This document shows, piece after piece, positions 2,135-40,702 of a stretch of DNA of 64,000 bases (the stretch's first letter is position 1; every line of letters starts with the position of its first letter). The notes beneath the pieces are model-generated. The model worked only from the letters and a program-made list of their open reading frames with translations. It ran no database searches and was not told where the DNA came from. The stretch is from Candidatus Aminicenans sakinawicola JGI OTU-1 (GTDB lineage: Bacteria > Acidobacteriota > Aminicenantia > Aminicenantales > Aminicenantaceae). Location of the stretch: the NCBI GenBank assembly GCA_000493965.1, contig AWNV01000001.1, positions 41,167-105,166 of the forward strand, in the 5' to 3' direction. Position numbers and translations under genes: made by a program.

Positions 2135-2265
2135 GGGTGAAATCTCCGATGAAAAGTGCAAGGTTTTTGAGGGGTTTTTGCGAAAAACCTTGCATTTTGA
2201 CCTTGAAATTCCACTGCAGCATATCATATAATTATAGTATTATCAAGAAGTTAATTGATGTTTTT

Positions 2266-2290
2266 GCTTTTTTCAGTAGACCCTAGATAA
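2266..2290. repeat. Right terminal inverted repeat of the IS
   Basis: gcttttttcagtagaccctagataa; the reverse complement matches 716-734 over 19 consecutive bases. Confidence 0.65.
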
Positions 2291-2339
2291 TAGATATCCC
2301 AAATAAGATGAATAGCAGTTTTAGATCATTGGAATAAGA

Positions 2340-3524
2340 ATGAAAATAGCCATAGCAGTTAATGGTCGGCCTCATGAAAGCGGAGTGACCACATATATTA
2401 ATACAGTTGCCGATGTCTTACGGAGTTATGACTGTGATGTGAGAGTCGTTACCATTTTCGGTATGTCCAAATATCGAGAGGTACACCAATCATTTAAGAA
2501 CAAGACGGATTCTATTTTAAAAGGACGCGAAGGCTTAACAAGGTTGACTTATATAGCAAGTAAAATAATTTTAAGCTTAAGATTGCTTTTAGAATATCTT
2601 AGGTCCAAATATGATTTAATATGGGCGAATGATATTTCTGTCGTTAACGCTGTATATCTCTGGTCAAAATTAATACGTATTCCTGTAACACTAATTGTAC
2701 ATTATCCTATAAACAGAGATCTGATTAGTCAGGAAAAAGTCAAAAATGACAGTCCAACACATCGATATTTCCTTGAAGAAGAAAAGCGGGGCTATAAAAG
2801 AGCTGATAGAATAATTTCGCTAAGTCATTATGTCGAGCAGTGGATAGAAAATCTTCAACCAGACCACGCACCGATTAGAATAATGCGCACTCCTATGGAA
2901 ACAAATGATTTCATTAGGAATGAAAGTCGGCATAATATCCGTGGTCGGCTAGGATTCGTTGAAGAAGATTTTGTGGTTATGTTCTGTGGTCGCCTAGTAA
3001 ACAGAAAAGGCCCAGAATTCCCAATCATGGCACTCAGCAGTATGGAGAAAGGCAAGCGTCAAGGAATCAAACTTATATATGTGGGAGATGGCCCTGATAA
3101 GGATAAGTTAAAAAATCTTGCAGCATCATCAGGTGTTAGCGAACAAGTTTTTTTTAAAGGTTTCGTCAAGCATCAATTGAAAACGGACTATTTTCTTACT
3201 GCCGATGTTGTATTAGTGACTTCAGTGAGGCACGAAGGTTTTGAGGATAATTCACCTAATGTGCTCTTTGAGGCGATGGCAGCTAAAGTACCACTTATTG
3301 CCTTTAAATCAGGCGGCATAGCCGAGTTAATCGAACATAAAAATACTGGTCTGGTCATTGAAGAGAGAAACGTTGCAGCTCTAGCAAATGCGTTGATTGA
3401 ACTCAAAACAAATAGACGGCTATGCAGGACTATTGCTAAAAATGCTTTTCAAAGACTCCAGGATGTTCACTCTTCTCAAATTATAGGACGACAAATTTTA
3501 GACTACTTTACAGACCTTATTTAG
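2340..3524 (+). CDS. Glycosyltransferase family 4 (GT-B, retaining)
   Basis: C-terminal EX7E-type motif: EGFEDNSPNVLFEAMAAKVPLIAFKSGGIAELIEHKNTGLVIE. Confidence 0.8.
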   Translation: MKIAIAVNGRPHESGVTTYINTVADVLRSYDCDVRVVTIFGMSKYREVHQSFKNKTDSILKGREGLTRLTYIASKIILSLRLLLEYLRSKYDLIWANDISVVNAVYLWSKLIRIPVTLIVHYPINRDLISQEKVKNDSPTHRYFLEEEKRGYKRADRIISLSHYVEQWIENLQPDHAPIRIMRTPMETNDFIRNESRHNIRGRLGFVEEDFVVMFCGRLVNRKGPEFPIMALSSMEKGKRQGIKLIYVGDGPDKDKLKNLAASSGVSEQVFFKGFVKHQLKTDYFLTADVVLVTSVRHEGFEDNSPNVLFEAMAAKVPLIAFKSGGIAELIEHKNTGLVIEERNVAALANALIELKTNRRLCRTIAKNAFQRLQDVHSSQIIGRQILDYFTDLI

Positions 3525-15639: not shown

Positions 15640-17007
15640 ATGGATCATAAAATAATATTATTTGCATTTATTATTTTGTTTTACTTTCTATTAATGATGC
15701 GATCAATGAAGTTGGCATTGCTCGTATATCTATTCCTGTGTCCTTTTAATATCTTTATTCCAGTCGGTGGGAGAAACATTAATTCTACTGAAGCAGTAGC
15801 AATGATGTTTATTGTTGTATGGATATCAGGTTTGTTAAGAAATGAAAGGCCGTGGGTTCCTGATACTGTATTTACAATACCCCTGTTTTTTTACTTTTTA
15901 GCATCGCTTACAATGATAATCAACACTGGTCTTACAGGTGATGTTATTCTTAGTATTATTAGACACTTCCAATTTTTTGGTGTCTTTATGATCTTTGTGA
16001 CTTACTTTAAGGATAGGAAAGACATATATGCGATTTCCAACACATTAATTGCATCCTTAGCAGTACTTTGCCTTATCGCAATTATTGAGTTTGTTTTCGT
16101 ATACGGAGGATACGGAATACCCTGGCAGAGGTCAATCTTGTGGAAAAAAGGACTGATTGATATAGGATTTTATCCTGGTACAGCTCTAGCGCTGAAAAGA
16201 TTGATATCTGTGTCAGCCAAGGCAGGACTTGGAGCCACTTTCCCGATTCATCACGCATTTGGTATTTATCTGGGTTCTCTGATATATCTACTTGTCTGGA
16301 GAATATATCTTTACAAAAAGCTGAATAGGAAGAAGATAGGCATGCTGTTATTGCTTATCATCTCTTTGGCTATCCTTATTTTTACTAAATCACGGACTGC
16401 GATTTTTTCTTTTTTGTTATCAATACCTCTAATGGTGATGCTTTTAAGAAATTGGAGATTGAGGTTCAAAATAATCTTAGTTGTTGCTGTTTCATTAATT
16501 ATAATACTTGCTTTTATTCCAGATATAATTATTGAACCGTCGGTAGAATGGATAGGGATTTTATATAAGAGTGGTTTTGCAGGTTTGAACGCAGGGGATC
16601 TTCATAGAATTGATTATTTTTTGGGCTCAGTGAATACATTTCTAAAGCATCCTTTAATCGGAGTTGGATATCGCATATTTAGTATGGATTTTAATCCTCA
16701 TACAGCAATTACACAAGCATTGGTATTAAAGGGTATTTTAGGTGGTATAACACTTTTATGGGTATTATTAAGGATGTTTAGAGTAAGTTATAGACACCTT
16801 AGGAAAATAAGGCACGAAAAAGCTGATAGGGAACATTTTCTATCAGTAGGGTGGTTATTAAGTATTACCATTTATTTGGGTGTGCAAAGTATAGGAGTTG
16901 GACTCTTTGGCTATGTTCTGACATGCATTCCGGCTATATCTGCAATGTCAATGTTTGTCATTTCAAGAAAATCATTTGCCGTTGAGAAGAGTCAGAACCT
17001 ACGATAA
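15640..17007 (+). CDS. O-antigen ligase/polymerase-like membrane protein (second Wzy_C-type protein)
   Basis: Polytopic; Wzy_C-like segment ..IFTKSRTAIFSFLLSIPLMV.. Confidence 0.65.
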   Translation: MDHKIILFAFIILFYFLLMMRSMKLALLVYLFLCPFNIFIPVGGRNINSTEAVAMMFIVVWISGLLRNERPWVPDTVFTIPLFFYFLASLTMIINTGLTGDVILSIIRHFQFFGVFMIFVTYFKDRKDIYAISNTLIASLAVLCLIAIIEFVFVYGGYGIPWQRSILWKKGLIDIGFYPGTALALKRLISVSAKAGLGATFPIHHAFGIYLGSLIYLLVWRIYLYKKLNRKKIGMLLLLIISLAILIFTKSRTAIFSFLLSIPLMVMLLRNWRLRFKIILVVAVSLIIILAFIPDIIIEPSVEWIGILYKSGFAGLNAGDLHRIDYFLGSVNTFLKHPLIGVGYRIFSMDFNPHTAITQALVLKGILGGITLLWVLLRMFRVSYRHLRKIRHEKADREHFLSVGWLLSITIYLGVQSIGVGLFGYVLTCIPAISAMSMFVISRKSFAVEKSQNLR

Positions 17008-17037
17008 AATCCTGCTGGCTACTTCAGGGAGTTATCC

Positions 17038-17991
17038 TTGACATTAAAAAGTGTTGTAAAAAAAGTTTTCAATTATATTAATGTTGCGAAAATAAAGAGG
17101 TTTGCAATAAATGATAACATGTATTTTATAGGTAATAGAGATTCACCTGGTGCAATAAACAGGGTGGTTTTATATTTTCCGGACTATGAGTTCATGCATT
17201 ACGGAGACCATTTGTTCTTTGAGCCACTGGCAAGATTTTTTAAATTAAAAAACTTCAAAGTAAAAGTAATGCCTGTAAAGCAGATGGAATTTTATTTCAT
17301 AAAAAACGGTTATCTGATAGGAAATCATGATGATGTAAAAAAGGCAGATTTATTAATTACAAGAACTGAATTTTATAAAGATGTTAAGAGATTGATTGAA
17401 AAAAACATCTTATTTATCAATACGTCATCTGCTAAAATTAATCAATTTTTGTGTAAGGATATCGTAAATAAAGTAGCCAACTTTTTTTCAATAGAAAGTG
17501 ATAATTTTTATACAAAGCCGTCGGGACTGAGAAATTGTCCGGAAAATATAAGGCTTGACTCAAGTTATAATTATGTAATTTTTAATAATTATATAGATTC
17601 GGGATTTTTCAGGGTTATAAAAAGAGACTATAAAAAGATCAATGACTTTGCTAAAAATTTCGCTAAAGAAAATAATTTAAAAGTTATTCACACAGGCACA
17701 CAAAAAGAAAAAGACAATGACAAGAAAACCTATGATTTTGTTGATATTGATTTAAGAGGGAGAACAGGTCCTGCAGACTTATTTTATCTGGCCTCACATG
17801 GTAATGTTAAATACAATATATCTTTTGACACTTTATTAATGCATATATTTTTTATCTATGGGAAAAAATCGTATATCATGTTCAGAGGGAGATTTTCAAG
17901 TTCAGCAAGGGATTACTTTATTAAAAATTATGTGATTCCACCATTCGATCCAGAACCGCATAAAATAAAAAATTTAATTGAGTATATATAG
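17038..17991 (+). CDS. Hypothetical protein, possibly a GT9 (heptosyltransferase-like) glycosyltransferase
   Basis: TTG start. N-terminal ..RVVLYFPDYEFMHYGDHLFFEPLARFF.. and C-terminal ..RTGPADLFYLASHGNVKYNISFDTLLMHIF.. weakly resemble GT9 motifs (GD.., DSG.mHLA). Confidence 0.35.
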   Translation: MTLKSVVKKVFNYINVAKIKRFAINDNMYFIGNRDSPGAINRVVLYFPDYEFMHYGDHLFFEPLARFFKLKNFKVKVMPVKQMEFYFIKNGYLIGNHDDVKKADLLITRTEFYKDVKRLIEKNILFINTSSAKINQFLCKDIVNKVANFFSIESDNFYTKPSGLRNCPENIRLDSSYNYVIFNNYIDSGFFRVIKRDYKKINDFAKNFAKENNLKVIHTGTQKEKDNDKKTYDFVDIDLRGRTGPADLFYLASHGNVKYNISFDTLLMHIFFIYGKKSYIMFRGRFSSSARDYFIKNYVIPPFDPEPHKIKNLIEYI

Positions 17992-18022
17992 AAAGTTCAT
18001 ATATACTACATGTTAAGGCTGC

Positions 18023-19372
18023 TTGAGTAAAATGCGTAAACTTATATCAAACTTTCTATTTTTATTTCTTGACATCATCTCTATCTGTACATCAATTATC
18101 TTAACCTACTTAATAAAATTTAAAAACCTGGACATGTTTTTATCGGAACAGCTTCCCCGCTCGCCATTTGATGACATTATCCTATGGGTAATCTTTATCC
18201 TTGTAATTTTTTATGTCCTGGAGCTCTACAGTCTCATTTTTTATGCGTCAGGAATTAAGATTATGCTGAGAATCTTAGCAGGTGTATTCACAGCAGGAGT
18301 CATGGTTGCTGTATTTACATATTTGTTCCTCCATGTATTTATTGGGCGAAGTTTGTTTGTTTTGCATATCTTTTTTATTGCGACGTTTACAACAATATGG
18401 AGGTTAGGGTTCAGCGTAATACAAGAACAGATTGATAAGAGCAGAAATATTCTAGTGGTTGGACCAAGAGGGGTAATTTCAAGTGTAGCCAATGAACTTA
18501 TAAAAACAAACAGGTTCTCTGTTAAGAAATATCAATATAGCTACAAGTCGAAGAATGCAAGTCCATTAGAAGAGGTTTCTAAAACTAAAAATCTGGATGT
18601 GATTTTTTTTGATGATCCGAAAATGCCTGATGAAGTCATGCAGGGTTTGATGCAATGCCGTGTAAGAGGTGTCCCTGTGAGGGAAATTGTAGATTTTTAT
18701 GAAGATGAGTGGGAGAAGATTCCTGTTTATCATCTAAGGGACCGATGGTTTGTCTATTCACATGGGTTTACCGTGATTCATCATATCTTTTATCAAAGGG
18801 TAAAAAGGATTTTTGATATTGGCCTATCGATCCTGACAATGATTGTTATGGGGCCCCTGATGTTTCTGACTGCAGTACTTATCAAAATTGAATCAAAAGG
18901 ACCTGTTTTTTATAAACAGAAGCGTATTGGTCTTAATGAGAGGACGTATAACTTGATAAAGTTCCGTTCCATGATCAAAGATGCGGAAAAAAATGGTGCG
19001 ATGTGGGCGGAAGAAAAAGACCCAAGACTAACAAAGGTAGGGAGAATTATAAGACCGTTCAGGATAGATGAATTGCCTCAAATATTAAATATATTAAAAG
19101 GAAATATGTCTTTTATAGGGCCAAGACCTGAAAGGCAAATCTTTATTGAAGAACTTAAAAAGGAAATTCCATATTACAGTTACCGCCATTTTGTTAAACC
19201 AGGACTGACAGGCTGGGCACAGGTAAACTATCCTTACGGTGCTTCTATGGAGGATGCAGTGCGGAAGCTGGAATATGATCTTTATTACATAAAAAACTCA
19301 AACTTTCTCCTGGACCTTCAGATTGTTTTAAGGACATTTAGGGTGATCCTATTTAGGAGGGGAAGCCGTTGA
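18023..19372 (+). CDS. Undecaprenyl-phosphate sugar phosphotransferase (WbaP/PglC-like bacterial sugar transferase), the priming enzyme
   Basis: N-terminal TM helices plus the C-terminal catalytic domain ..LPQILNILKGNMSFIGPRPERQ..KPGLTGWAQVNYPYGASMEDAVRKLEYDLYYIKN.. Confidence 0.85.
   Translation: MSKMRKLISNFLFLFLDIISICTSIILTYLIKFKNLDMFLSEQLPRSPFDDIILWVIFILVIFYVLELYSLIFYASGIKIMLRILAGVFTAGVMVAVFTYLFLHVFIGRSLFVLHIFFIATFTTIWRLGFSVIQEQIDKSRNILVVGPRGVISSVANELIKTNRFSVKKYQYSYKSKNASPLEEVSKTKNLDVIFFDDPKMPDEVMQGLMQCRVRGVPVREIVDFYEDEWEKIPVYHLRDRWFVYSHGFTVIHHIFYQRVKRIFDIGLSILTMIVMGPLMFLTAVLIKIESKGPVFYKQKRIGLNERTYNLIKFRSMIKDAEKNGAMWAEEKDPRLTKVGRIIRPFRIDELPQILNILKGNMSFIGPRPERQIFIEELKKEIPYYSYRHFVKPGLTGWAQVNYPYGASMEDAVRKLEYDLYYIKNSNFLLDLQIVLRTFRVILFRRGSR
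19313..19372. repeat. Direct repeat copy 1 (the last 60 bp of the priming transferase gene)
   Basis: gaccttcagattgttttaaggacatttagggtgatcctatttaggaggggaagccgttga; about 90% identical to 20475-20534. Confidence 0.8.
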
Positions 19373-19379
19373 AGGAAGT

Positions 19380-20471
19380 ATGAAGGTAGCAATTGTCCAT
19401 GACTATTTCAACAAGAAAGGAGGTGGAGAAAGGCTTGTACTGAATCTTGCAGAAGCCTTTGATTCAGACATAATCACAGGATTTGTTGAACATAAAAAGA
19501 CATATGATATTGGGAATTACAGAGTGCATGAGCTCTCCAAGCCCATCAATAACCCTATTCTCAAGATCATCACGCTACATAACAAGTTTAAGAAACTCCG
19601 TCTCAAAGGTTATGATGCTGTAATTCTCTCTGGTACCACATGCCTTGCAGCAGCAGAACACAACCACCCAAATATATGGTATTGCAATACGCCTGTTCGA
19701 CATCTTTACAGCCAGAAGGAATGGTTCTTTAAACAAATAAATCCTTTACAGAGGATGACGCTCAAGGTATTTCACCTTTGGCTTAAACCTATAGATCAAC
19801 GGAATGTACGCCATGTAGACAAGATTGTGTGCAATTCAGAAAACATCAAGAACAGGATAAGGAGATTCTACGGAGAGAAATTCTATAAAAATGCAACAGT
19901 CATTTACCCACCTGTTAAGACAAATAAGTTCGAACGGAAAGGTCAGAAAGACTTCTATCTTTCTTTTGGGCGTTTAGACAAGCTAAAAAGGATCCATCTA
20001 ATTGTTGAAGCATTCAAAGACATGCCTGACAAGAAGCTCGTGGTAGTTTCAGGGGGACCAGAGCTTGAGAACATAAAAAGAAAGACAAGTAACTATAAAA
20101 ACATAGACATCAAAGGTTATGTGAGTCAAGGAGAACTTGAAGAGCTCATTGGCTCATGTATCGCCACGATCTACATACCCATCGATGAGGATTTCGGTAT
20201 GAGTCCTGTAGAAGGGATGACTGAAGGAAAGCCATGCATAGGCGTAGACGACGGAGGATTGAAAGAGACAATCATTCATAAGAAGACAGGTTATTTATGT
20301 AACAAGGATATCAAAAAAGAAGACCTTATCCAAGCAGTGAGATGGATGAACAAAGCACAAACAAAGAAAATGAGACAAAAAAGTATCAGAGAAGCACAAC
20401 GGTTTCATCAAGAAGGCTTTCGAAAGAAGATGCAGAAGGAGATTCAGATGGTTGTAAAGAGTGGGATATGA
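19380..20471 (+). CDS. Glycosyltransferase family 4
   Basis: EDFGMSPVEGMTEGKPCIGVDDGGLKETIIHKKTGYL; the gene is bracketed by the 60-bp direct repeats. Confidence 0.75.
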   Translation: MKVAIVHDYFNKKGGGERLVLNLAEAFDSDIITGFVEHKKTYDIGNYRVHELSKPINNPILKIITLHNKFKKLRLKGYDAVILSGTTCLAAAEHNHPNIWYCNTPVRHLYSQKEWFFKQINPLQRMTLKVFHLWLKPIDQRNVRHVDKIVCNSENIKNRIRRFYGEKFYKNATVIYPPVKTNKFERKGQKDFYLSFGRLDKLKRIHLIVEAFKDMPDKKLVVVSGGPELENIKRKTSNYKNIDIKGYVSQGELEELIGSCIATIYIPIDEDFGMSPVEGMTEGKPCIGVDDGGLKETIIHKKTGYLCNKDIKKEDLIQAVRWMNKAQTKKMRQKSIREAQRFHQEGFRKKMQKEIQMVVKSGI

Positions 20472-20474
20472 TTA

Positions 20475-20534
20475 GACCTTCAGATTGTTTTAAGGACATT
20501 TAGAGTGATCCTATTAAGGATAGGAAGTCGTTAA
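20475..20534. repeat. Direct repeat copy 2 (non-coding duplicate of the 3' end of the priming transferase gene)
   Basis: gaccttcagattgttttaaggacatttagagtgatcctattaaggataggaagtcgttaa. Confidence 0.8.
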
Positions 20535-20541
20535 AATAGTA

Positions 20542-21918
20542 ATGAAAGATATAAAAGTTTTATTTTTTATTTTTATCATTTTTCAAGGTGTTTTCTATTT
20601 ATTACTTGTACCTCCATGGCAATCACCGGATGAAACTCATCATTTTGGTTGTGGAGCTTTATTATCCAAAAATGCTAAATTAGGATCTAAAAACCATAAA
20701 ATTGTTAGTAAAGAAATTGTTGAATCAATGGCTAATTTTCATGCCTGGCAATATCAAAATATTCCACGTCCTGAACCAATGCCTCAAACATTATCCGAGC
20801 TGCCCTATTACCAGGGTATTGAAAGTGTCTCCGGAAGAGAACCTCTTTATTATGGGATTAACTCATTTATTTTAAAGGTCTTTAATTTAAAGAAGAACAT
20901 CGATCAATTTTATTTAATCCGATTTCTTTCATTATTATATTTCATTGTTACTGTCTATTTTTTATATTTATCTTCGAAACTTGTATTTAAAGATAATATT
21001 TCTTATGTCTTTGCAACTGTTTGCTTTGTTGCTCTTTTACCTCAATTTTTGATCATTACCACTTCTGTTAATCCAGTGAATCTTGCTGTGGTGTTAGGAG
21101 CGGCCTTTCTTTATGTAATTCTTTATTCTTTATTTAAGGGGAAAAAATTAATTGCTCTTCTGTTAGGACCCATAATTATTGGATTGGCTTTTTTCAATCA
21201 TCGAGTTGCTTTGTTTATGATTCCCCCCTTTGTGGTTTTGTTGTTAATATATTTTGTTCGCTCATTGAAAAGTAAAAGGGAAATGATAAAAATCTTTGTT
21301 ATTACTTTGATTGTTTTACTGATATTTATATTCTTATTTTTTACGGCTCAGTATTTCTTTCCAGATCAATTTAAAAGAGTTGTTAGCATTTCAGGATTAA
21401 AACCTCGAATATATGAAATAAATGAATTTGGAAAATATATATCACCCGGAACTTCTCGATCTTTAACAAGTTTTTTAGATGGGTCTTTTAAGACTTTTTG
21501 GTTTTTTGCGGGATGGTTGAGATTTGGATATCATTTGGATATTTATTCTGTCTTGAAATTGATTTGTTTTCTTTCGGTTTTCGGTCTTTTTAAGTATTTA
21601 TACTTATATTTTTCTCGGAGAAAATATTCAATGGATGTGGATTTTTCTTCTTTTCTCATTCTTATTGCTGCAGGTCTGCCTATTATATTTGGAGCAATAA
21701 TTAGATATTATCCTACATCTATAGTAGCACAAGGAAGGTATGTTTACCCAGCAATAAGTGCATTAGCAATTCTTTTTATATTGGGATTAAAGGAAATTGC
21801 TCCAAAGAGGTTAGAAAAGTGGGTGCCAATATTCATTATTGGTGGCTTTATGGCACTGAATATATATACTATTTTTCATTCAATGTTCAGGGTTTTTTAT
21901 TATTTCACGAATGCCTAA
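20542..21918 (+). CDS. Polytopic membrane protein, GT-C-like (PMT/ArnT-related) candidate glycosyltransferase
   Basis: About 12 TM helices; first-loop motif ..LVPPWQSPDETHHFG..; its stop overlaps the start of the next gene (21911). Confidence 0.45.
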   Translation: MKDIKVLFFIFIIFQGVFYLLLVPPWQSPDETHHFGCGALLSKNAKLGSKNHKIVSKEIVESMANFHAWQYQNIPRPEPMPQTLSELPYYQGIESVSGREPLYYGINSFILKVFNLKKNIDQFYLIRFLSLLYFIVTVYFLYLSSKLVFKDNISYVFATVCFVALLPQFLIITTSVNPVNLAVVLGAAFLYVILYSLFKGKKLIALLLGPIIIGLAFFNHRVALFMIPPFVVLLLIYFVRSLKSKREMIKIFVITLIVLLIFIFLFFTAQYFFPDQFKRVVSISGLKPRIYEINEFGKYISPGTSRSLTSFLDGSFKTFWFFAGWLRFGYHLDIYSVLKLICFLSVFGLFKYLYLYFSRRKYSMDVDFSSFLILIAAGLPIIFGAIIRYYPTSIVAQGRYVYPAISALAILFILGLKEIAPKRLEKWVPIFIIGGFMALNIYTIFHSMFRVFYYFTNA

Positions 21919-23344
21919 GATATTCAAAAAGAAAAATATTATTCCTTTAACTTATATTGTTTTAATTATTTTTATCTCTGTTTTTTTTCTTTCAATTTCT
22001 CCTCCTACATTGATCGAAGTATATAATCAATCCCAGAATGATATTCCAGTGGGTGAAATATACGGAAGCATGAAGATTGGACAGACTTTTGAGGCAGATC
22101 ATAAAGATTTATCAGCCATAGAAGTTTTGCTGGCAACTTTTAGTAGAGTGAATGAAGGGACTTTCGTCTTTCATCTGAGAGATAGCTTAAAAAGTGAAGA
22201 TAATATGGTTTGGTACAACGTTAATATGAGAGAAGTTCAGGATAATAAGTTCTTTCGTTTCTCTATTCCCAAGATAAAAGATTATAAAGGAAAAAGAATA
22301 TTATTTTCAAAAGGGAAGAAATATTATTTTTATCTGGAATCTCCCCATGCAGAACCTGGGAATGCCATTACCATCTGGTCGAGTTCTGAGAACTTATATA
22401 AGGATGGTGAAAAAATTATCAATGGTGTGCCATCTCAAGGAGATCTAGTATTTAAAACGGAATATGAATTGGGATGGATGTTAAGTTATCATACTCTGTC
22501 AACAAGACTTATGAATATTCTGAATTTTTCCCTTAATCTTTTTAAGAATCAAGTTTTTTATTTTGTAATACTTCTTATGTCGTTTGTCTGGGCCTTTATC
22601 ACACTTGTAACAAAATTTGAAATCTTTCAAAGAAAAGGAGGTATTTTCTTTGTCTTCGGAATTGTGTTTTTTGTTGTATCCCTTTGGATCGTTCTGCTTT
22701 TTATGAAGAAAATAGAAGTTTACAATCAATTTGTCCCCAACAATGCGGCAGGGGAAATTTATGGAGGAAAAAAAGTGGGGCAGACTTTTACAGCCCAGCA
22801 TGACCATCTGATAGCTATTGAGGTATTAATGGGGACTTATAACAGAAAAAACACGGGTGAGTTGATCTTTCATATGAAAGGACAGGCAGGGGATATGATC
22901 GATTTACACCATTCCAGGGTGGATATGCTTAATATCAAGGACAACCGGTATCATCGATTTAAGATCTCTGAAATAAAAAACTCCAAGGGCAGAAAATATT
23001 TTTTTTATTTAGAAGCACCGCAGTCCCAATCTGGAAACACTATAACCATCTGGTGCAATGACGAAGAGGATAAGTACAGAGAGGGGGCGAAGGTTATTAA
23101 TGGCGAAGAGATGGAAGGAGATCTTGTTTTTAAAACCATCTATGCTGTAGGATTGGGAGGGAAAACCGGTTTATTTTTGGGAGAAATTACACGGAATAAG
23201 CCTTCACCTCTGAATACTAAATTGTTATATGTGGGGCTGATTGTTTCCTTCGTTCTCACATGTTCTCTGCTTTTGACCTACATCATTAGAGTTTTTGTGG
23301 AAACGTACGTTATAAAAAAGAAAGAGGGTCATTCTGAATATTAA
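21911..23344 (+). CDS. Membrane protein of unknown function with two tandem copies of a module (one TM helix plus a roughly 150-aa domain)
   Basis: Module 1 is about residues 10-195 and module 2 about 215-405; they align across their length. Example: GEIYGSMKIGQTFEADHKDLSAIEVL..FYLESPHAEPGNAITIWSS..GDLVFKTEYE versus GEIYGGKKVGQTFTAQHDHLIAIEVL..FYLEAPQSQSGNTITIWCN..GDLVFKTIYA. A third TM helix lies at the C-terminus. Confidence 0.6.
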   Translation: MPKIFKKKNIIPLTYIVLIIFISVFFLSISPPTLIEVYNQSQNDIPVGEIYGSMKIGQTFEADHKDLSAIEVLLATFSRVNEGTFVFHLRDSLKSEDNMVWYNVNMREVQDNKFFRFSIPKIKDYKGKRILFSKGKKYYFYLESPHAEPGNAITIWSSSENLYKDGEKIINGVPSQGDLVFKTEYELGWMLSYHTLSTRLMNILNFSLNLFKNQVFYFVILLMSFVWAFITLVTKFEIFQRKGGIFFVFGIVFFVVSLWIVLLFMKKIEVYNQFVPNNAAGEIYGGKKVGQTFTAQHDHLIAIEVLMGTYNRKNTGELIFHMKGQAGDMIDLHHSRVDMLNIKDNRYHRFKISEIKNSKGRKYFFYLEAPQSQSGNTITIWCNDEEDKYREGAKVINGEEMEGDLVFKTIYAVGLGGKTGLFLGEITRNKPSPLNTKLLYVGLIVSFVLTCSLLLTYIIRVFVETYVIKKKEGHSEY

Positions 23345-24749
23345 ACCACAGGTTATCATTCTAGGAGCAGGTATATCCGGAATAAGCTTAGCGTGGAGAT
23401 TGTGCAGTGAGGGAGTTAGAGTTTTGGTGATTGAATCCGCTAATGTTGTTGGAGGTTTAGCTGGAACGCTCCGAGAAAACGGATACTGTATGGATGTTGG
23501 CCCTCATTCTCTTTTTTCTGAGGACAAAGAGATTCTTGATATAATCCTCAATCTTTTTGATAACACATTAATAGCTAAACCGCGACAGGTCAAATTCTAT
23601 TACAGAGGTAAATATCTCGATTACCCTCTAACAGCATACAGCGTGCTTTTTCAGATGGGTATTTGGTCTGGTATGCGCGTTGGATTAAGCTTTTTGAAAA
23701 GCAAGTTTTTATCCAAAAAACATAAAACTCTTAATAGGGAAGAAGAGACTGTTGAGGATTGGGCAATTGCAAGTTTTGGGAAGCATCTTTATAAGACTTT
23801 TTTTAAGCCTTATACTGAACAATTCTGGAAGTTACCTTGTACAGAGTTATCGTCCCGCACTATTCCCACTCATACACGAATGAGCTTTATTAATACGCTG
23901 CGTCTGCTTTTACAGAAGCGATTCACCAAATCGGATGCGTCTCTTATCGAACGAGAAATGCTGCCTACTTATTACCCGAATTCAGGTTTTGGAGAAATCC
24001 CTGAGAGAATTGCTGTTGAAGTTAAGAAAAGGGAAGGGCAGATCTATACAAATTGCCGGGCTTTGAGAGTCAAAAAACTGCCAAGTGGGGGAATGAGTGT
24101 TTTGTATGAGCAAAACGGAAAACAAAAGGAAGTTAGAAGTGCTTATGTGGTTTCAACTATACCAATTAATGAATTTATCAAGATGCTAAATCCGCCGCCG
24201 CCTCCGGAAATTCTAGCGTCGGCTGATGGGCTCAATTATCGTGCGCTTACATCTCTGGGAATTGTGACAGAGAAGCAAAATATTCTTAATTGCAGTTATA
24301 TCTATGTTTTGGATCGTCCATACAACCGTATTTCTGAAATGAATGAGTTCAGCCAAACAACAAGTCATGCAGGAGATAATATCATTATGATCGAAATACC
24401 GTGTCACAGAGATAGTACTGTATGGACAGCTTCAAAAGAAAAACTGTTTGATATGTGCATTGGCAGCCTGGCAAAGGATGGTATCCTGGGGCCGGGAGAT
24501 GTAAAACATTTACTCGTAATAAGATCACCGCATGCCTATCCAATTTACAGTAAAGACTATGCAAAGAACCTGAATAAAGTCTTCGATTATATAAATGGAA
24601 GCAAAGGGATATCAATATTGGGGAGGACTGGTGAATTTATCTACTCGGATATTGATAAGTGTATGAAAAGAGCCTTTGATTTTGCCGATAGGTTTTTAAA
24701 GGATTATTGCATGGAGATAAAGTCCAAAAAAGGAGAACAGCATGCCTAA
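23340..24749 (+). CDS. FAD-dependent oxidoreductase, UDP-galactopyranose-mutase-like (Glf/amine-oxidase fold), paralog 1
   Basis: Rossmann motif VIILGAGISGISLAW..VVGGLAGT..DVGPHSLF and Glf-like C-terminal GRTGEFIYSDIDKC. The GxGxxG motif lies upstream of the first ATG/GTG/TTG codon (the TTG at 23400), so the start is probably ATT 23340 or CTG 23334, both preceded by AGAGGG. Confidence 0.5.
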   Translation: MKPQVIILGAGISGISLAWRLCSEGVRVLVIESANVVGGLAGTLRENGYCMDVGPHSLFSEDKEILDIILNLFDNTLIAKPRQVKFYYRGKYLDYPLTAYSVLFQMGIWSGMRVGLSFLKSKFLSKKHKTLNREEETVEDWAIASFGKHLYKTFFKPYTEQFWKLPCTELSSRTIPTHTRMSFINTLRLLLQKRFTKSDASLIEREMLPTYYPNSGFGEIPERIAVEVKKREGQIYTNCRALRVKKLPSGGMSVLYEQNGKQKEVRSAYVVSTIPINEFIKMLNPPPPPEILASADGLNYRALTSLGIVTEKQNILNCSYIYVLDRPYNRISEMNEFSQTTSHAGDNIIMIEIPCHRDSTVWTASKEKLFDMCIGSLAKDGILGPGDVKHLLVIRSPHAYPIYSKDYAKNLNKVFDYINGSKGISILGRTGEFIYSDIDKCMKRAFDFADRFLKDYCMEIKSKKGEQHA

Positions 24750-29620: not shown

Positions 29621-30553
29621 ATGAAAATTGTGATTACTGGAGCTTTGGGGCATATAGGCTCAAAAGTTATCCGGGAAATCCCAGAAACTTTCCAAGAACC
29701 TGAAATTGTTATGATCGATAATATGTTGACTCAACGCTACTGTTCTTTGTTTAACTTACCTGCTCGCGGGAAATATTCTTTTATAGAAGCAGATGTATTA
29801 AATATGGAACTATGCCCCATTATTGAGGGAGCTGATTTTGTCCTGCATTTGGCTGCTATTACTGATGCCACAAGCAGTTTTAAAAACAAAGATCAGGTTG
29901 AAAATGTCAATTATAAAACAACAGTGAGGGTTTCCGAGGCTTGTAATGAAGTTGGATGCCCCATGATCCATTTTTCAACAACCAGCGTATATGGCACCCA
30001 ACAAAACGTTGTAGATGAAGATTGTTCTCCTGAGGAACTACGGCCACAAAGCCCCTATGCAGAGACAAAATTGAGGGAAGAACAATTTTTGCAAAATTTT
30101 GGCGCAGCAGAAAATTTGGATTTTTTAATATGTCGTTTTGGAACAATATGTGGGATTTCTCCTGGGATTCGCTTTCATACAGCGGTGAATAAATTCTGCT
30201 GGCAGGCTGTTATGAAGCAGCCGCTTTCTGTATGGCGGACAGCTTTATTTCAAAAGCGTCCCTATTTGGTTCTGAGTGATGCAGTGAAAGCCATTATATT
30301 TATAATTAAAAACAACTTGTTTGATAAAAGGATTTATAATGTCCTATCAGAAAATAGGACAGTACATTCCATTATTCAATGTATAAAACAATATATTCCC
30401 CAGTTAAATATTCAATATGTAAATGCCGAGATCATGAATCAGTTATCTTATGAAGTCTCAAACCTGCGCTTCAAAGAACAAGGATTTGAATTTTCAGGGA
30501 GTGTAGATAAAAGTATTCAAGAAACGATTCAATTACTTTTAACTGTGAAATAA
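29621..30553 (+). CDS. NAD-dependent epimerase/dehydratase (extended SDR) no. 3
   Basis: MKIVITGALGHIGSKV; YAETK. Confidence 0.7.
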   Translation: MKIVITGALGHIGSKVIREIPETFQEPEIVMIDNMLTQRYCSLFNLPARGKYSFIEADVLNMELCPIIEGADFVLHLAAITDATSSFKNKDQVENVNYKTTVRVSEACNEVGCPMIHFSTTSVYGTQQNVVDEDCSPEELRPQSPYAETKLREEQFLQNFGAAENLDFLICRFGTICGISPGIRFHTAVNKFCWQAVMKQPLSVWRTALFQKRPYLVLSDAVKAIIFIIKNNLFDKRIYNVLSENRTVHSIIQCIKQYIPQLNIQYVNAEIMNQLSYEVSNLRFKEQGFEFSGSVDKSIQETIQLLLTVK

Positions 30554-33186
30554 ACATCCGGTTTTCTATTCTTAATGGTTGTAATCAGAAATAGAAAAAA
30601 ATAAGATGCATATGATAGAGCCTTTAAATAGAATGTTATAAAATCAACCTTATGATAAAATTCTACAGTATGAAGACCTGGAGGTAAATTAATCCCCATG
30701 AAACCGCCTTCTAACACTTCTATCTTTCCAGGCACTTTATCTGTTCTTACTTTCCAATATTTATCATTGAACATTTCAAAATATAGAAATCTCCTAAAGC
30801 TTGTGTCTACTTTAATCCGCAGGTAATCTCCTCTAAATTCTTCAATTTTAATATCTCTCAATATTTTTTGGAAGCTTATAACTATTTTTTGCGGTCTATA
30901 ATCCCTGCTTAAGGAAATATTTAGAGTTTTTGCTTTCTCATAGTTTAGTTGGTACTGGCCTGCTTCGTAAAAATCATTATACCAAGTTTCTTTCAGAAGT
31001 TTATTATTGGACATAACCGAGATGTATATCCTGGTATCACTATAGGAATTAGTTGAATAATAATATGGAATTTGAGGATGAACCAGCTTATATATGTTTA
31101 TACCATACCTATCAAGGCTGCGGTGCAACTTAAATGCGGAAAAAGGGAAAGTCAAAACAGTCTCATCTTTTTCAGGATAGTAAATATGATCCAAAAAACT
31201 GCTTAAGTCAATATACTCTTGGTGGATTATTTTCTTATAGAAAGCATTCATAATTTCTTTATTTTTTACCAAACCGATTATCGGCTTATGCAATACCTTT
31301 TTTTTGATCTCTGCGTCAGGGATAGCATCTATACCTTTATAGAAAGGGAGCAGTTTTTTGTATGTTAGATCAACTAGATTCAATTCCGAAAACACCTTGC
31401 TGTATACAGTAAGATATCCCCTACATGTATCTATACGGTACTGCTTTGATAAATAACTAATAAAGGGTTCGAAGGAAGTATCTCGTGGCAACGAACTATC
31501 TTCCTTTCTTAATGGAGGAAGAGAGTATGGCTTCCAATAATCGACTTTGCGGTAGTAGTTACTTGTGTAATAGTAGTTCATCATTAGTTGAGAGAAGATG
31601 AGCATACCGAGAATCGGAAGTAGCATGTTTTTTCTCCATTTTTTATTTATGTTTGACTCTATAAAATACATGGCTAGAATCATCAGTATTAGCAACCCAA
31701 ATATCTGTATCAAAAAGGTGATCCAATTACCTGAATTCGAGCCGAGGATAATCAGAGTGAAGGAAGTGAAGCGATGTATATATCTCTGGGAGAGTGGACC
31801 TGCAAGGAAGGGAACAAGAATAAAAATAATCAATACCAAACTATATATTCTAGATTTCTTCGTTAAAATCTTCCCTGTTTTACGCAAATTATCAAAAATA
31901 CTATTTATCCCATATCCAATTAACACGATCAATGGTAATGCTGCATAATCAAATAAATAATTAATCCACCGTGTCTTTCTGAAAATTTCAAGTTGATAAA
32001 ACAATTTATATAGCCATGATTCACTTCCCATGCCGATATAAAATAACAATAGGAATAGAGACAAAAATAAATACTTTAATTTATTTTTTGAGAAGAGCAG
32101 GGCCATGCCAATAAAAAAAAGGCCTATGGATCCAATATAGGCACTCTGAGCCATTCTATCGTAGCCTTGTGTCTCTACAGGGTAGACATACTGCACTATG
32201 TCTTGTGGTTTGTAATCTACTGCCTCAGAAAGCAGAATGTATTGTCTATCGCTCCCTCCCCAACTCATGGGATTTGTATAAAAATCACTGAGGGATGGTA
32301 ACATTAAAAGCATCGGCAATGAGATTATGAGGAATGAAATAAAAAGGGAAAAAAAGTTAAAAGCATTGCCCTTGATAAAAATTAATGAATCCTTTGTTAT
32401 TTTTTTCAGAATACATACGAAATCATTAGATTTTTTGTATTCTATGATTCTCATAATGAGTAAGTAACTTATCAGGATGAAAACGAAAGTCGTGATATAA
32501 AAAAAGGCATGTATCATCATTCTACCGGAATACAATATCTGGCCAAGCAAAAAACCTTGAATAACATAAATATAAATAGAAGCCTTTTTATTTGATAAAA
32601 ATATTTTGATAAAAAATAGTGAAATCCAAGGAATAAACATAAATGCTGTTAATACATTATGTACTGCTTCAAGAAGGGAGAGTGACCAACCACTGAAGAT
32701 AACAAATAGAAGTGTACAAAACACAACCCTTTTATCTTTAATAAGATGCTTTAATAGAAAATAAAAACCACCTATGAAAATAAAGAAGTAACATAAGTAA
32801 ATAATATATATCTTATAAATTACGTGCACATCTAAATCGACTCCAATTGTCCGGAAAAAACGCATTATTTGCAGATAGCCCAAGAAGATAGGTGAATTGA
32901 TACAGTTTATATAAGAATACATAAGGAAGTTATGACCACCTATCACATAAGGTTCCCACGTTGGAATTTTTCCATAATTCATAAAATAACTTATTTGAAA
33001 TGAGAAAGTACCATAGTCATTGGTAGCATCAGCGAATTCAAGCCGATTGAAGTGATTTGAACCGATAAAGAAGTGATAGACAAGCAGTAAGAAAATAAGT
33101 GGAACAAGTTTCCTTGCGGTCTTGGTGAATTGCTCCTTAATTTTCCTCAATTTCTCTCGGCTGACATTTTTGGATGAGTGTATCAC
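30529..33186 (-). CDS. YfhO-family large polytopic membrane protein (GT-C-like)
   Basis: 885 aa with more than 15 TM helices; N-terminal ..YGKIPTWEPYVIGGHNFLMYS.. resembles the YfhO signature (PLWNPYIFGG.P); a large extracytoplasmic C-terminal domain. Confidence 0.55.
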   Translation of the reverse strand: MIHSSKNVSREKLRKIKEQFTKTARKLVPLIFLLLVYHFFIGSNHFNRLEFADATNDYGTFSFQISYFMNYGKIPTWEPYVIGGHNFLMYSYINCINSPIFLGYLQIMRFFRTIGVDLDVHVIYKIYIIYLCYFFIFIGGFYFLLKHLIKDKRVVFCTLLFVIFSGWSLSLLEAVHNVLTAFMFIPWISLFFIKIFLSNKKASIYIYVIQGFLLGQILYSGRMMIHAFFYITTFVFILISYLLIMRIIEYKKSNDFVCILKKITKDSLIFIKGNAFNFFSLFISFLIISLPMLLMLPSLSDFYTNPMSWGGSDRQYILLSEAVDYKPQDIVQYVYPVETQGYDRMAQSAYIGSIGLFFIGMALLFSKNKLKYLFLSLFLLLFYIGMGSESWLYKLFYQLEIFRKTRWINYLFDYAALPLIVLIGYGINSIFDNLRKTGKILTKKSRIYSLVLIIFILVPFLAGPLSQRYIHRFTSFTLIILGSNSGNWITFLIQIFGLLILMILAMYFIESNINKKWRKNMLLPILGMLIFSQLMMNYYYTSNYYRKVDYWKPYSLPPLRKEDSSLPRDTSFEPFISYLSKQYRIDTCRGYLTVYSKVFSELNLVDLTYKKLLPFYKGIDAIPDAEIKKKVLHKPIIGLVKNKEIMNAFYKKIIHQEYIDLSSFLDHIYYPEKDETVLTFPFSAFKLHRSLDRYGINIYKLVHPQIPYYYSTNSYSDTRIYISVMSNNKLLKETWYNDFYEAGQYQLNYEKAKTLNISLSRDYRPQKIVISFQKILRDIKIEEFRGDYLRIKVDTSFRRFLYFEMFNDKYWKVRTDKVPGKIEVLEGGFMGINLPPGLHTVEFYHKVDFITFYLKALSYASYFFLFLITTIKNRKPDVYFTVKSN

Positions 33187-37540: not shown

Positions 37541-38242
37541 ATGCAAGCAGTCATAATGGCAGGAGGATTGGCTACAAGGATTAGACCTCTAACCAATGAG
37601 ATTCCAAAGTCGTTAGTATCAATCGAAGAAAGACCTTTTTTACAGTATCAAATAGAATTACTTACTTGCTATGGCATAAAAGATATTATTCTGTGTGTGA
37701 GTTACATGGGTAAAAAAATTGAGAACTGTTTTGGTGATGGGAATAAATATAATGCAAGAATAATATATTCATATGAAAAAGAAAAGCTTTTAGGAACTGG
37801 GGGAGCTCTTAAATTAGCTGAAAAAAATCTTAAAGAAAATTTTTTTTTAATATGGGGAGATTCCTATGTTAATTTAAATTATAAAGAAATGCATGACTTT
37901 CATCTAAAGAATTCTGATAATTTCGATGTCACAATAGCAATTTTTTATAACATAAGAAATTATGATAAAAGTAATATTGTTTATAAGAGTGGAAAAATAA
38001 AAAAATATGAAAAAAATTCAACCGATAAAATGAAATATATCGATGCTGGAGTAATGGTTATAAATAAGAAGTTATTATTAAGAATACCTCCTGGAAAGGT
38101 TTTTCAAATAGAAAATTTATTTACTAAACTAGCAAAAGAAGAGAAAATAAAACCTTTTTTAATAAAAAAAAGATATTATGAGGTAGGGTCATTAAAAGGA
38201 TTAAATCAATTCACAAAATTCGTAAAGAGAAATCAAATTTAA
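37541..38242 (+). CDS. Sugar-1-phosphate nucleotidyltransferase (HddC/RmlA-like NTP_transferase)
   Basis: MQAVIMAGGLATRIRPLTNEIPKSLV N-terminal nucleotide-binding signature; 233 aa. Confidence 0.75.
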   Translation: MQAVIMAGGLATRIRPLTNEIPKSLVSIEERPFLQYQIELLTCYGIKDIILCVSYMGKKIENCFGDGNKYNARIIYSYEKEKLLGTGGALKLAEKNLKENFFLIWGDSYVNLNYKEMHDFHLKNSDNFDVTIAIFYNIRNYDKSNIVYKSGKIKKYEKNSTDKMKYIDAGVMVINKKLLLRIPPGKVFQIENLFTKLAKEEKIKPFLIKKRYYEVGSLKGLNQFTKFVKRNQI

Positions 38243-38262
38243 AAATCCGTTCAGTAAGAATA

Positions 38263-38340: not shown

Positions 38341-38351
38341 AGATTTTATAG

Positions 38352-39644: not shown

Positions 39645-39692
39645 AAATTAAATAAAATCCGTGTAAGAAATTTTTCTTAACTGAGGGGTAAT

Positions 39693-40694: not shown

Positions 40695-40702
40695 TTTTTC
40701 AA

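What the first reader, a model, noticed from the sequence alone, without database searches (positions are those of the whole stretch)
19313..20534. GT4 gene flanked by 60-bp direct repeats derived from the 3' end of the priming transferase gene
The last 60 bp of the WbaP-like gene (19313-19372) recur at about 90% identity immediately after the next gene (20475-20534), where they are non-coding. The GT4 gene at 19380-20471 is therefore a cassette flanked by direct repeats. This fits insertion by homologous or illegitimate recombination into the 3' end of the priming gene. It may also make the GT4 gene deletable, as a phase-variable presence/absence.
Basis: seen in the sequence. Interest (0 to 1): 0.65.

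Follow-up and report, generated by a model that had tools for sequence, protein, structure and literature searches.

The report
Recombination scar beside an inserted glycosyltransferase gene
A sugar-adding enzyme gene was spliced into a cell-surface polysaccharide gene cluster just behind the gene that starts sugar-chain assembly, leaving a 60-base non-coding copy of that gene's tail as a scar; this is an ordinary way for such clusters to diversify and there is no sign that the gene switches in and out.

Summary
Window 19313-19372, the last 60 nt of the Bac_transf priming-transferase gene, recurs at 20475-20534 right after the GT4 gene. Identity is 54/60, the first 29 nt are exact, and no other copy exists in the window.

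Copy B is a dead relic of a priming-transferase gene end; it still reads LDLQIVLRTFRVILLRIGSR*. Together with its TAA stop, its 7-nt spacer and the next gene's start, it matches the native Bac_transf-to-458-aa-gene junction in five related loci that lack GT4. So GT4 was inserted, probably by homologous recombination on one side and an illegitimate join on the other.

The scar is old and decaying. It is full length here, heavily substituted in L010, cut to a 13-nt stub in five loci, and absent in L015. In L011 a GT9 gene has replaced GT4, leaving nested scars.

The phase-variation idea is not supported. All near-identical assemblies keep GT4, the predicted excision chimeras are absent from about 15 billion proteins, and sister lineages keep GT4 without a usable repeat. 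The repeat is not a terminator, Rfam family or dispersed element.

One oddity remains. The window's two copies are more alike than neutral decay predicts, which suggests gene conversion or constraint. This is a new example of a known kind, and interest is low to moderate.

The parts
18032..19372 (+). Priming polyprenyl-phosphate glycosylphosphotransferase gene (446 aa from the ATG at 18032; the mechanical ORF starts at the TTG at 18023)
   Evidence: PF02397 Bac_transf, E=8e-67. TIGR03025 scores 365 bits against a cut-off of 296; TIGR03013 scores 387 against 393; WbaP model TIGR03022 scores 163 against 403. The exact 446-aa protein is on 20 contigs.
19313..19372 (+). Copy A: the functional last 19 codons plus TGA stop of the priming gene (DLQIVLRTFRVILFRRGSR*)
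   Evidence: All GT4-bearing clade-I alleles have a TGA stop here.
19373..19379 (+). 7-nt spacer AGGAAGT carrying a Shine-Dalgarno-like AAGGAAG for GT4. This spacer type precedes GT4 in all clade-I alleles
   Evidence: It is not homologous to the spacer after copy B (2 of 7 bases match).
19380..20471 (+). Inserted GT4-family glycosyltransferase gene (363 aa)
   Evidence: PF00534, PF13439 and PF13692. Absent from the same slot in L007, L009, L019, L020 and L021. A 65%-identical homologue sits in an unrelated glycan locus without Bac_transf (L016/L017).
20472..20534 (+). Copy B: non-coding relic of the resident priming gene's 3' end, still reading LDLQIVLRTFRVILLRIGSR* with a TAA stop. The repeat proper is 20475-20534
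   Evidence: Its stop codon type, following spacer and next-gene start match the empty-site junctions of L019, L020 and L021.
20535..20541 (+). Native 7-nt spacer AATAGTA (AATAATA in empty-site alleles L019, L020 and L021)
20542..21918 (+). 458-aa membrane protein gene (weak PMT_2 / DUF2142-type, GT-C-like). It is the native downstream neighbour of the priming gene
   Evidence: PF13231 at 27.2 bits against a cut-off of 26.1. Homologues are annotated DUF2142/PMT_2. It follows Bac_transf directly in the five empty-site loci.

Best explanation
The 60-nt downstream copy (copy B) is a recombination scar. It is the orphaned original 3' end of the priming-transferase gene, left behind when a GT4 glycosyltransferase gene with its own ribosome-binding spacer was recombined into the slot between the priming gene and its native neighbour, the 458-aa GT-C-like gene.

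The most likely route is as follows. Donor DNA carried a homologous priming gene followed by GT4. It crossed over homologously inside the priming gene on the left. On the right it joined illegitimately, just after the GT4 stop codon, to a point 60-63 nt before the end of the resident priming gene. This is homology-facilitated illegitimate recombination; a Campbell-type single crossover of a circular fragment gives the same product. The result is an intact priming gene (copy A), then GT4, then the duplicated dead gene end (copy B), then the native spacer and neighbour.

The effect is one more glycosyltransferase step in a Wzy-dependent exopolysaccharide or O-antigen-like pathway.

The scar has no demonstrated function and is being lost at different rates in different lineages. 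The same slot has since been re-used: GT9 replaced GT4 in L011.

Shown: the repeat; its coding origin; empty-site alleles; the allelic series of decay; nested scars; and the absence of terminator, Rfam or mobile-element features. Inferred: the direction (insertion rather than ancestral presence), the donor origin of copy A, and the exact recombination mechanism.
For: - Repeat real and non-random.
- Copy B keeps the frame and stop of a PF02397 C-terminus.
- Copy B + TAA + AATAGTA + ATGAAAGATATAAAA matches the native junction of the GT4-less loci. L019 has TAA AATAATA ATGAAAGATATAAAA; L020 and L021 have the same stop and spacer.
- Five empty-site loci share the same 7-nt gene spacing.
- In the Bac_transf tree rooted on 55%-identity outgroups, GT4-bearing loci form one clade at 95% bootstrap and empty-site loci form a separate 77% group; that group joins GT4-bearing L015 in a weakly supported sister clade (55%).
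- The junction 'GT4 stop + TTAGACCTTCAGA' is shared by the window, L008, L011, L012, L013 and L014, and in decayed form by L010, so it arose once. The L010 spacer is similar to copy B at p~0.003, and at p~1.5e-4 over the first 32 nt.
- Decay series: full length (window), substituted (L010), 13-nt stub (L008, L011, L012, L013, L014), none (L015).
- In L011 a GT9 gene sits between retained 5' and 3' GT4 fragments.
- The GT4 and Bac_transf trees disagree, showing frequent recombination.
- A GT4 homologue exists in unrelated loci.
- A second, mirror-image gene-end relic lies in the same window at 38258-38345.
- Gene remnants are a recognised anomaly in O-antigen clusters: 9 noted across 178 E. coli serogroups, read as signs of relatively recent events (PMC7685785).
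- Homology-facilitated illegitimate recombination is established in transformable bacteria: de Vries & Wackernagel 2002 and Prudhomme et al. 2002, seen in the reference list of PMC3784515. Otherwise this rests on my own knowledge.
Against: - Polarity is not proven. The only outgroup context obtained (L022) has an unrelated gene downstream. A precise excision between the repeats would recreate an empty site indistinguishable from an ancestral one.
- By synonymous divergence, empty-site L019 (dS 0.3-0.4) is nearer to the window than GT4-bearing L014 (0.4-0.7) or L010 (~1.5). Differences in base composition (GC 0.35 against 0.40-0.41) confound this.
- No microhomology or donor context could be examined, so the mechanism is inferred from topology alone.
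- A two-step alternative gives the same product: two loci fuse, each with its own priming gene, and most of the second copy is then deleted.
- If the scar were purely neutral and as old as the L014 or L010 split, copy B should carry about 13-46 substitutions. It has about 4.
Confidence: 0.8

Rival explanations
1. Contingency or phase-variation cassette. The direct repeats exist to let GT4 be deleted by recombination, giving GT4-plus and GT4-minus cells within a population.
For: A 29-nt perfect block inside a 60-nt 90% repeat, 1162 nt apart, is near the minimal length for RecA-dependent recombination (own knowledge). Excision would restore a functional, empty-type junction. GT4-less alleles do exist in related lineages.
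Against: There is no polymorphism in the clonal population: six loci are 100% identical over 3.9 kb, all with GT4. The exact GT4 protein is on 32 contigs, and the predicted excision chimeras are absent from the protein collection. The three JGI contigs holding the 29-mer all have an occupied slot. Sister lineages retain GT4 after losing the repeat. Empty-site loci form their own clade. A deletion cannot be reversed.
Confidence: 0.05
2. The relic is kept similar to the live gene end by intrachromosomal gene conversion (concerted evolution), or by selection on the 60-nt element itself. Selection might act on it as a homology handle for swapping glycosyltransferase genes or as an RNA or translation element for the downstream gene. 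This is an add-on to the scar model rather than a replacement for it.
For: Copy B has no change in its first 45 nt relative to the clade-I consensus and about 4 changes in the last 15 nt. With the junction shared with L014 (GT4 dS 0.42) and L010 (dS 1.55), neutral decay predicts about 13 to 46 substitutions; P(4 or fewer) is 0.005 and 1e-15 respectively. L010's own relic no longer resembles its own copy A (p=0.6). That fits conversion stopping once identity is lost.
Against: Measured against the nearest relatives (L012, L008; dS 0.23-0.27), the preservation is not significant: P=0.18 and P=0.09. The test assumes a molecular clock and comparable base composition. The relic is dispensable, being deleted in six loci. 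There is no conserved RNA structure (0 compensatory pairs, covariation term +0.4), no Rfam hit, and only a mild fold z-score of -2.3. The part nearest the downstream start codon is the least conserved part.
Confidence: 0.3
3. GT4 is carried by a mobile element or integron-like cassette, and the repeats are target-site duplications or attachment sites.
For: Direct repeats flank a single gene. GT4 homologues occur in unrelated loci. L015 has GT4 with different junctions.
Against: No transposase, integrase or recombinase gene lies within 10 kb on either side. There are no terminal inverted repeats or attC-like palindromes. Sixty nt is far longer than typical target duplications, and it is plainly the coding end of the neighbouring gene. 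The repeat is absent from other genes.
Confidence: 0.03
4. Copy B is a shared regulatory element, such as a terminator, REP-like element or leader, that happens to overlap the end of the priming gene.
For: It sits in an intergenic gap directly upstream of a gene. The fold z-score is mild at -2.3.
Against: Only two copies exist in 64 kb. There are no terminator-like sites in 17000-22000, and promoter-like sites are below shuffle expectation. No Rfam family matches at E up to 1. No covariation. The element is deleted in sister lineages with the downstream gene intact.
Confidence: 0.02

Closest known systems
Gene remnants at recombination junctions in O-antigen and capsule gene clusters (E. coli, Salmonella and Shigella O-antigen clusters; pneumococcal cps loci)
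   Same: A non-coding fragment of a cluster gene lies at the edge of a segment that is present in some relatives and absent in others, in a Wzy-dependent polysaccharide locus. It is read as the footprint of a past recombination event (PMC7685785: 9 gene-remnant anomalies across 178 E. coli serogroups).
   Different: Here the remnant is a duplicate of the end of a gene that is still intact next door, so it forms a direct repeat around the inserted gene. The lineage is uncultured and low in GC (a relative is labelled Acidobacteriota). A full allelic series is visible in metagenomes: empty, full scar, decayed scar, stub, none, and a replaced gene with nested scars.
Homology-facilitated illegitimate recombination (one-sided homology anchor plus illegitimate join), as described for Acinetobacter, Pseudomonas stutzeri and Streptococcus pneumoniae transformation
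   Same: The topology fits: a conserved anchor gene (the priming transferase) on one side, a foreign gene brought in, and a non-homologous join at the other end.
   Different: The mechanism is inferred only. No donor sequence, microhomology or competence system was examined. The classic experimental products usually delete recipient DNA rather than duplicate 60 nt of it.
Campbell-type single-crossover integration, which duplicates the homology segment on both sides of the insert
   Same: It produces exactly this layout: homology copy, insert, homology copy. It also leaves the insert excisable by the reverse event.
   Different: It needs a circular intermediate carrying about 60 nt of the gene end plus GT4, for which there is no evidence. 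A 60-nt homology would be very short for such an integration.
[quoted passage not shown] 2001, cited in PMC3784515)
   Same: Direct repeats in a polysaccharide locus could in principle mediate loss of a segment.
   Different: No within-population polymorphism was found, no reversibility is possible, and the repeat has been lost in sister lineages that keep the gene.

Membership tests
Gene remnant / recombination scar in a polysaccharide gene cluster | Non-coding fragment homologous to part of a real gene of the cluster | tested here: met
   Copy B is 54/60 identical to the last 60 nt of the PF02397 gene and keeps its frame and stop. Its peptide matches the C-termini of homologues P0001-P0010.
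Gene remnant / recombination scar in a polysaccharide gene cluster | Lies at the edge of a segment that is present or absent among related loci | tested here: met
   GT4 is absent in L007, L009, L019, L020 and L021. It is present in L008, L010, L012, L013, L014 and L015, and replaced by GT9 in L011.
Gene remnant / recombination scar in a polysaccharide gene cluster | Decays (substitutions, deletions) where not under selection | tested here: met
   L010 is heavily substituted. L008, L011, L012, L013 and L014 are cut to 13 nt. L015 has none. The window copy is unusually intact.
Repeat-mediated phase-variable (contingency) locus | Both states co-occur within one strain or population | tested here: not met
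   Six near-identical assemblies all carry GT4. The predicted excision chimeras are absent from about 15 billion proteins, while the wild type is on 20 contigs. The limits of this test: it is a protein-level exact match and uses assembled contigs only.
Repeat-mediated phase-variable (contingency) locus | Switching is reversible | not testable with these tools
   By logic, a deletion between direct repeats removes GT4 permanently unless it is re-acquired.
Repeat-mediated phase-variable (contingency) locus | Repeats long and identical enough for frequent recombination | tested here: inconclusive
   The longest perfect block is 29 nt and the total is 60 nt at 90%. That is near the minimal processing segment known from E. 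coli (own knowledge). The rate in this organism is unknown.
Mobile element or integron gene cassette | Transposase, integrase or recombinase nearby | tested here: not met
   Genes within 10 kb on either side are glycan-synthesis genes or genes with no Pfam hit; there are no recombinase domains.
Mobile element or integron gene cassette | Terminal inverted repeats or attC-like palindrome at the cassette ends | tested here: not met
   Only short AT-rich chance inverted pairs, none at the boundaries.
Intrinsic terminator or dispersed regulatory repeat | GC-rich hairpin plus T-run, or many copies downstream of unrelated genes | tested here: not met
   0 terminator-like sites in 17000-22000. Only 2 copies in the window. 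In JGI metagenomes the 29-mer was found only in Bac_transf gene ends. No Rfam hit.
WbaP (undecaprenyl-phosphate galactose phosphotransferase) family | Scores above the curated cut-off of the WbaP model | tested here: not met
   TIGR03022 scores 163 bits against a cut-off of 403. TIGR03025 (EPS_sugtrans) scores 365 against 296 and is met. TIGR03013 scores 387 against 393, just below. The gene is a large PF02397 priming transferase but not demonstrably WbaP.
Homology-facilitated illegitimate recombination product | Homologous anchor on one side and microhomology join on the other, with an identifiable donor | not testable with these tools
   The topology is compatible, but the donor context is unknown. 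The nearest non-locus GT4 homologue (L016, 65%) has different neighbours.

The most novel reading that the evidence does not exclude
The orphaned gene end may not be inert. In this lineage it may be kept nearly identical to the live end of the priming-transferase gene by gene conversion or by selection. If so, conserved gene ends would act as reusable homology handles that make the slot behind the priming gene a modular exchange point for glycosyltransferase genes. The nested GT4/GT9 scars in L011 and the second gene-end duplication at 38258-38345 would then be products of the same handle-based process.
Probability: 0.15. Interest if true: 0.55.

Novelty: new member of a known kind. Interest (0 to 1): 0.3.

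Why it matters
The locus gives a clean, dated-by-decay example of how surface-polysaccharide gene clusters gain and swap single glycosyltransferase genes in an uncultured, low-GC lineage. It shows an empty site, a fresh-looking scar, a decayed scar, a stub, a clean junction, and a second-generation replacement with nested scars, all at one slot directly behind the priming-transferase gene.

For annotation, it warns that the 70-nt gap after GT4 is a pseudogene fragment and not a regulatory element. It also shows that presence or absence of GT4 among related loci reflects old recombination rather than switching.

The only point that could interest a specialist beyond this is the apparently slower-than-neutral divergence of the two copies. 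If real, it would be a small-scale case of concerted evolution between a gene and its own relic.

Tried and rejected
1. RNA element. The single-sequence fold is only mildly stable (z=-2.3). The consensus fold over the window's copy B and four native junctions has no compensatory pairs and a covariation term of +0.4. Rfam gave no match at E up to 1. Rejected.

2. Terminator or promoter. There are no terminator-like sites, and promoter-like sites are no more frequent than in shuffles. Rejected.

3. Read-through extension of GT4. Copy B is in frame with GT4 after its TGA. However, the stub alleles (L008, L012, L014) and L015 have no such extension, and the longer GT4 variants P0248 and P0249 are just frame variants through the stub. 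There is no support.

4. Recent import of the relic plus the 5' end of the 458-aa gene from an empty-type donor (a 'refresh' by recombination at the stub). Sliding-window identities show no segment where the window is closer to empty-site alleles than to L012. The first 45 nt of copy B also carry clade-I-specific states rather than clade-II states. Not supported.

5. Polarising the ancestral state with the outgroup P0009. Its downstream gene is an unrelated TPR protein. Uninformative.

6. Mobile-element features. None found. The base composition of GT4 is unremarkable.

7. Organism identification from accession numbers in the literature. No hits. Only indirect labels are available: 'Acidobacteriota bacterium' for L014/P0003 and 'uncultured Eubacteriales bacterium' for L007. 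From memory, unverified, the GCA_0004xxxxx AS** assemblies are single-cell genomes of candidate phyla.

8. My first tree and tblastn runs used a wrong frame for Bac_transf and for L015. They were redone.

9. Budget limits.
Full report
**1. The observation**

The last 60 nt of the gene at 18023/18032-19372 (copy A, 19313-19372) recur at 20475-20534 (copy B). Copy B starts 3 nt after the TGA stop of the gene at 19380-20471 and ends 7 nt before the ATG of the gene at 20542.
- The two copies align without gaps at 54/60, and the first 29 nt are identical.
- Allowing 3 mismatches, the 29-mer occurs only at these two sites in the 64-kb window. It gave 0 matches in 100 dinucleotide shuffles.
- A whole-window repeat scan lists this pair as the longest direct repeat.
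- The upstream gene is a PF02397 'bacterial sugar transferase' (E=8e-67). The bracketed gene is a GT4-type glycosyltransferase (PF00534/PF13439). The downstream gene is a 458-aa membrane protein with a weak PMT_2 hit.
- Copy B still reads LDLQIVLRTFRVILLRIGSR* against LDLQIVLRTFRVILFRRGSR* for copy A, so the frame and the stop position are intact.
The similarity the tool extends to 72 nt is, past the stop codon, only the ATGAA of the next gene. The 7-nt spacers (AGGAAGT and AATAGTA) share 2 of 7 bases.

**2. Setting**

The surrounding 25 kb is a Wzy-dependent polysaccharide cluster. It holds several GT4 genes, Epimerase_2, Wzy_C, the priming transferase, sugar-nucleotide modification genes and a C-methyltransferase.

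NCBIfam places the priming enzyme in TIGR03025 (EPS polyprenyl glycosylphosphotransferase; 365 bits against a cut-off of 296) and just under TIGR03013. The WbaP model scores 163 against a cut-off of 403. 'WbaP-like' is therefore only loosely true.

The exact GT4 protein is found in four draft or single-cell assemblies and in several ENA metagenome assemblies. Six fetched loci are 100% identical to the window over the 3.9 kb from the priming gene to the 458-aa gene. Related proteins carry the source label 'Acidobacteriota bacterium'. I could not identify the organism more precisely.

**3. Related loci give an allelic series at this one slot**

| State | Loci | Detail |
|---|---|---|
| Empty site | L007, L009, L019, L020, L021 | Priming gene stop, 7 nt, then the 458-aa gene; no GT4 |
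| Full-length relic | Window and its clones | Copy B as described |
| Same-length, heavily substituted spacer | L010 | 68 nt against 70 nt; similar to the window's copy B (global p~0.003; first 32 nt 20/32, p~1.5e-4); not similar to L010's own gene end (p=0.6) |
| 13-nt stub | L008, L011, L012, L013, L014 | TTAGACCTTCAGA or close variants, directly before the next gene's ATG; in L014 recruited into the N-terminus of the next gene |
| No relic | L015 | GT4 stop overlaps the next ATG; an unrelated 79-nt spacer lies upstream of GT4 |
| Replacement | L011 | A GT9 (PF01075) gene sits between the first ~24 nt and the last ~75 nt of GT4 (the latter with an in-frame stop), followed by the 13-nt stub |

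The junction 'GT4 stop + TTAG(A/G)(C/T)CTTC' is the same wherever a relic or stub survives, so it arose once.

**4. Which copy is the original**

Copy B carries a TAA stop, the spacer AATAGTA and the following start ATGAAAGATATAAAA. This matches the native junction of empty-site alleles: L019 has TAA AATAATA ATGAAAGATATAAAA, and L020 and L021 have the same stop and spacer.

Copy A carries TGA and an AGGAAGT-type spacer with a Shine-Dalgarno-like AAGGAAG. That is the form seen before GT4 in every clade-I allele.

So copy B is the resident gene end that stayed attached to its native neighbour. That copy A arrived with GT4 from a donor in which a homologous priming gene preceded GT4 is my inference from stop and spacer type. 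A resident duplicate that later changed is not excluded.

**5. Phylogeny and polarity**

A neighbour-joining tree of the priming enzyme was built with 300 bootstraps and rooted on 55%-identity homologues.
- The window, L008, L012, L014 and L010, all GT4-bearing, form one clade at 95%.
- The empty-site loci form a 77% group within a sister clade.
- L015 joins that sister clade weakly, at 55%.
- The GT4 tree disagrees with the Bac_transf tree in several places, so recombination within the locus is frequent.
- A 65%-identical GT4 homologue lies in an unrelated glycan locus without any PF02397 gene.

The simplest reading is a single insertion in the ancestor of the GT4 clade, plus later exchange. 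The caveats are these. The one outgroup context obtained is uninformative. By synonymous divergence, empty-site L019 (0.3-0.4) is nearer to the window than L014 (0.4-0.7) or L010 (~1.5), possibly because of GC differences. A precise excision would look exactly like an ancestral empty site.

**6. Mechanism**

The layout is: intact gene with copy A, then spacer with RBS, then GT4, then copy B, then native spacer, then native neighbour. This is what a recombination anchored by homology inside the priming gene and closed by an illegitimate join 60-63 nt upstream of the resident stop codon would give. That process is homology-facilitated illegitimate recombination. It is known from transformation studies; the references were seen, and otherwise this rests on my own knowledge.

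A Campbell-type single crossover gives the same product. So does a two-step route in which two loci fuse and most of the second priming gene is then deleted. None of the three can be told apart here.

No recombinase gene, terminal inverted repeat or attC-like site is present, and GT4's composition is unremarkable. A mobile-element origin is therefore unlikely.

**7.

*Phase-variable excision.* I built the two Bac_transf proteins that a crossover between the copies would create (…RVILLRIGSR and …RVILFRIGSR) and looked them up by exact sequence. Neither is in the collection of about 15 billion proteins. The wild-type protein is on 20 contigs and GT4 on 32. A scan of JGI metagenome contigs for the 29-mer returned three contigs, all with an occupied slot. 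Lineages that have lost the repeat still keep GT4. Excision would also be irreversible. Not supported.

*Common regulatory element.* The element has only two copies, no terminator-like site, no promoter enrichment, no Rfam hit and no covariation.

**8. One thing that does not fit a purely neutral scar**

Relative to the clade consensus, the window's copy B has no change in its first 45 nt and about 4 changes in its last 15 nt. The junction is shared with L014 (GT4 dS 0.42) and L010 (dS 1.55). Under a clock, a neutral 60-nt relic should then have collected about 13 to 46 substitutions in the window lineage. P(4 or fewer) is 0.005 for L014 and about 1e-15 for L010.

Measured against the nearest relatives L012 and L008, the preservation is unremarkable (P=0.18 and 0.09).

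Gene conversion from copy A is the most economical explanation. It could persist while a perfect block of at least about 25 nt remains, and stop once identity is lost, as in L010. Selection on the element, or clock and composition artefacts, remain possible. I rate this add-on at about 0.3.

**9. Comparison with what is known, and verdict**

Gene remnants at recombination junctions are a recognised feature of O-antigen and capsule clusters. The E. coli review lists nine remnant anomalies across 178 serogroups and reads them as marks of relatively recent events (PMC7685785).

This case is a new example of that kind. It has a tidy allelic series, and it is unusual in that the remnant duplicates the end of a still-intact neighbour. 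A second, mirror-image example lies in the same window: 38258-38345 copies the leader and first ~25 codons of the LPG_synthase_TM gene at 42769, bracketing a four-gene block. This suggests the process is common in this genome.

Interest is low to moderate, at 0.3. The most novel reading not excluded is that conserved gene ends are maintained as homology handles for modular glycosyltransferase exchange. I give that a probability of about 0.15.

Noticed in passing
window 38258-38345 versus 42752-42845: A second gene-end relic. The intergenic gap between the NTP_transferase gene (37541-38242) and the amine-oxidase-like gene (38352-39644) contains a copy of the leader and first ~25 codons of the LPG_synthase_TM gene (42769-43734). 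The 40-nt core is 93% identical, with an 11-nt deletion and an 8-nt insertion, and it still reads ..LLSAVLLAVVLF. The four-gene block 38352-42622 (amine oxidase-like, GHMP kinase, PFK, transaldolase family) is thus bracketed by a duplicated gene start, the mirror image of the GT4 case.
   Followed up: partly
L011 (SDBS01087001.1) 1418-2700, minus strand: A GT9 heptosyltransferase-family gene (351 aa, PF01075) occupies the GT4 slot. It lies between the retained first ~24 nt and last ~75 nt of GT4, plus the 13-nt Bac_transf stub. These are nested scars of two successive gene replacements.
   Followed up: yes
L015 (Logan SRR25638254_8589) 1180-2420: GT4 sits on a Bac_transf backbone that groups weakly with the empty-site clade. 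An unrelated 79-nt spacer precedes GT4, and an ATGA stop/start overlap follows it. This is either an independent way of acquiring the same GT4 gene or a cleaned-up junction.
   Followed up: partly
L014 2498-2540: The 13-nt stub of the relic has been recruited into the coding sequence of the downstream 458-aa homologue. Its start has moved to an ATG that overlaps the GT4 stop, giving MNRSSGWEKNIKV....
   Followed up: partly
L001, L004 and L005 versus window about 25300-46000: Three single-cell assemblies with identical genes differ structurally from the window and from L002/L003 downstream of the cluster. The differences include a truncated C-methyltransferase, an inverted Wzy_C/LPG_synthase block, and an inverted GT block. 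These may be real rearrangements or amplification chimeras.
   Followed up: no
window 17038-17991, 21911-23344 and 30529-33186 (minus strand): Three sizeable ORFs in or beside the glycan cluster (317 aa, 477 aa and 885 aa) have no Pfam hit; the 317-aa and 477-aa ORFs were also scanned against NCBIfam, again without a hit. The 317-aa and 477-aa genes are syntenic in all related loci, flanking the priming gene and the 458-aa gene.
   Followed up: no
window 23400-24749 and 38352-39644: Two amine-oxidase / UDP-galactopyranose-mutase-like flavoprotein genes lie in the same window, one in each glycan sub-cluster. They may be paralogues involved in furanose sugar formation.
   Followed up: no
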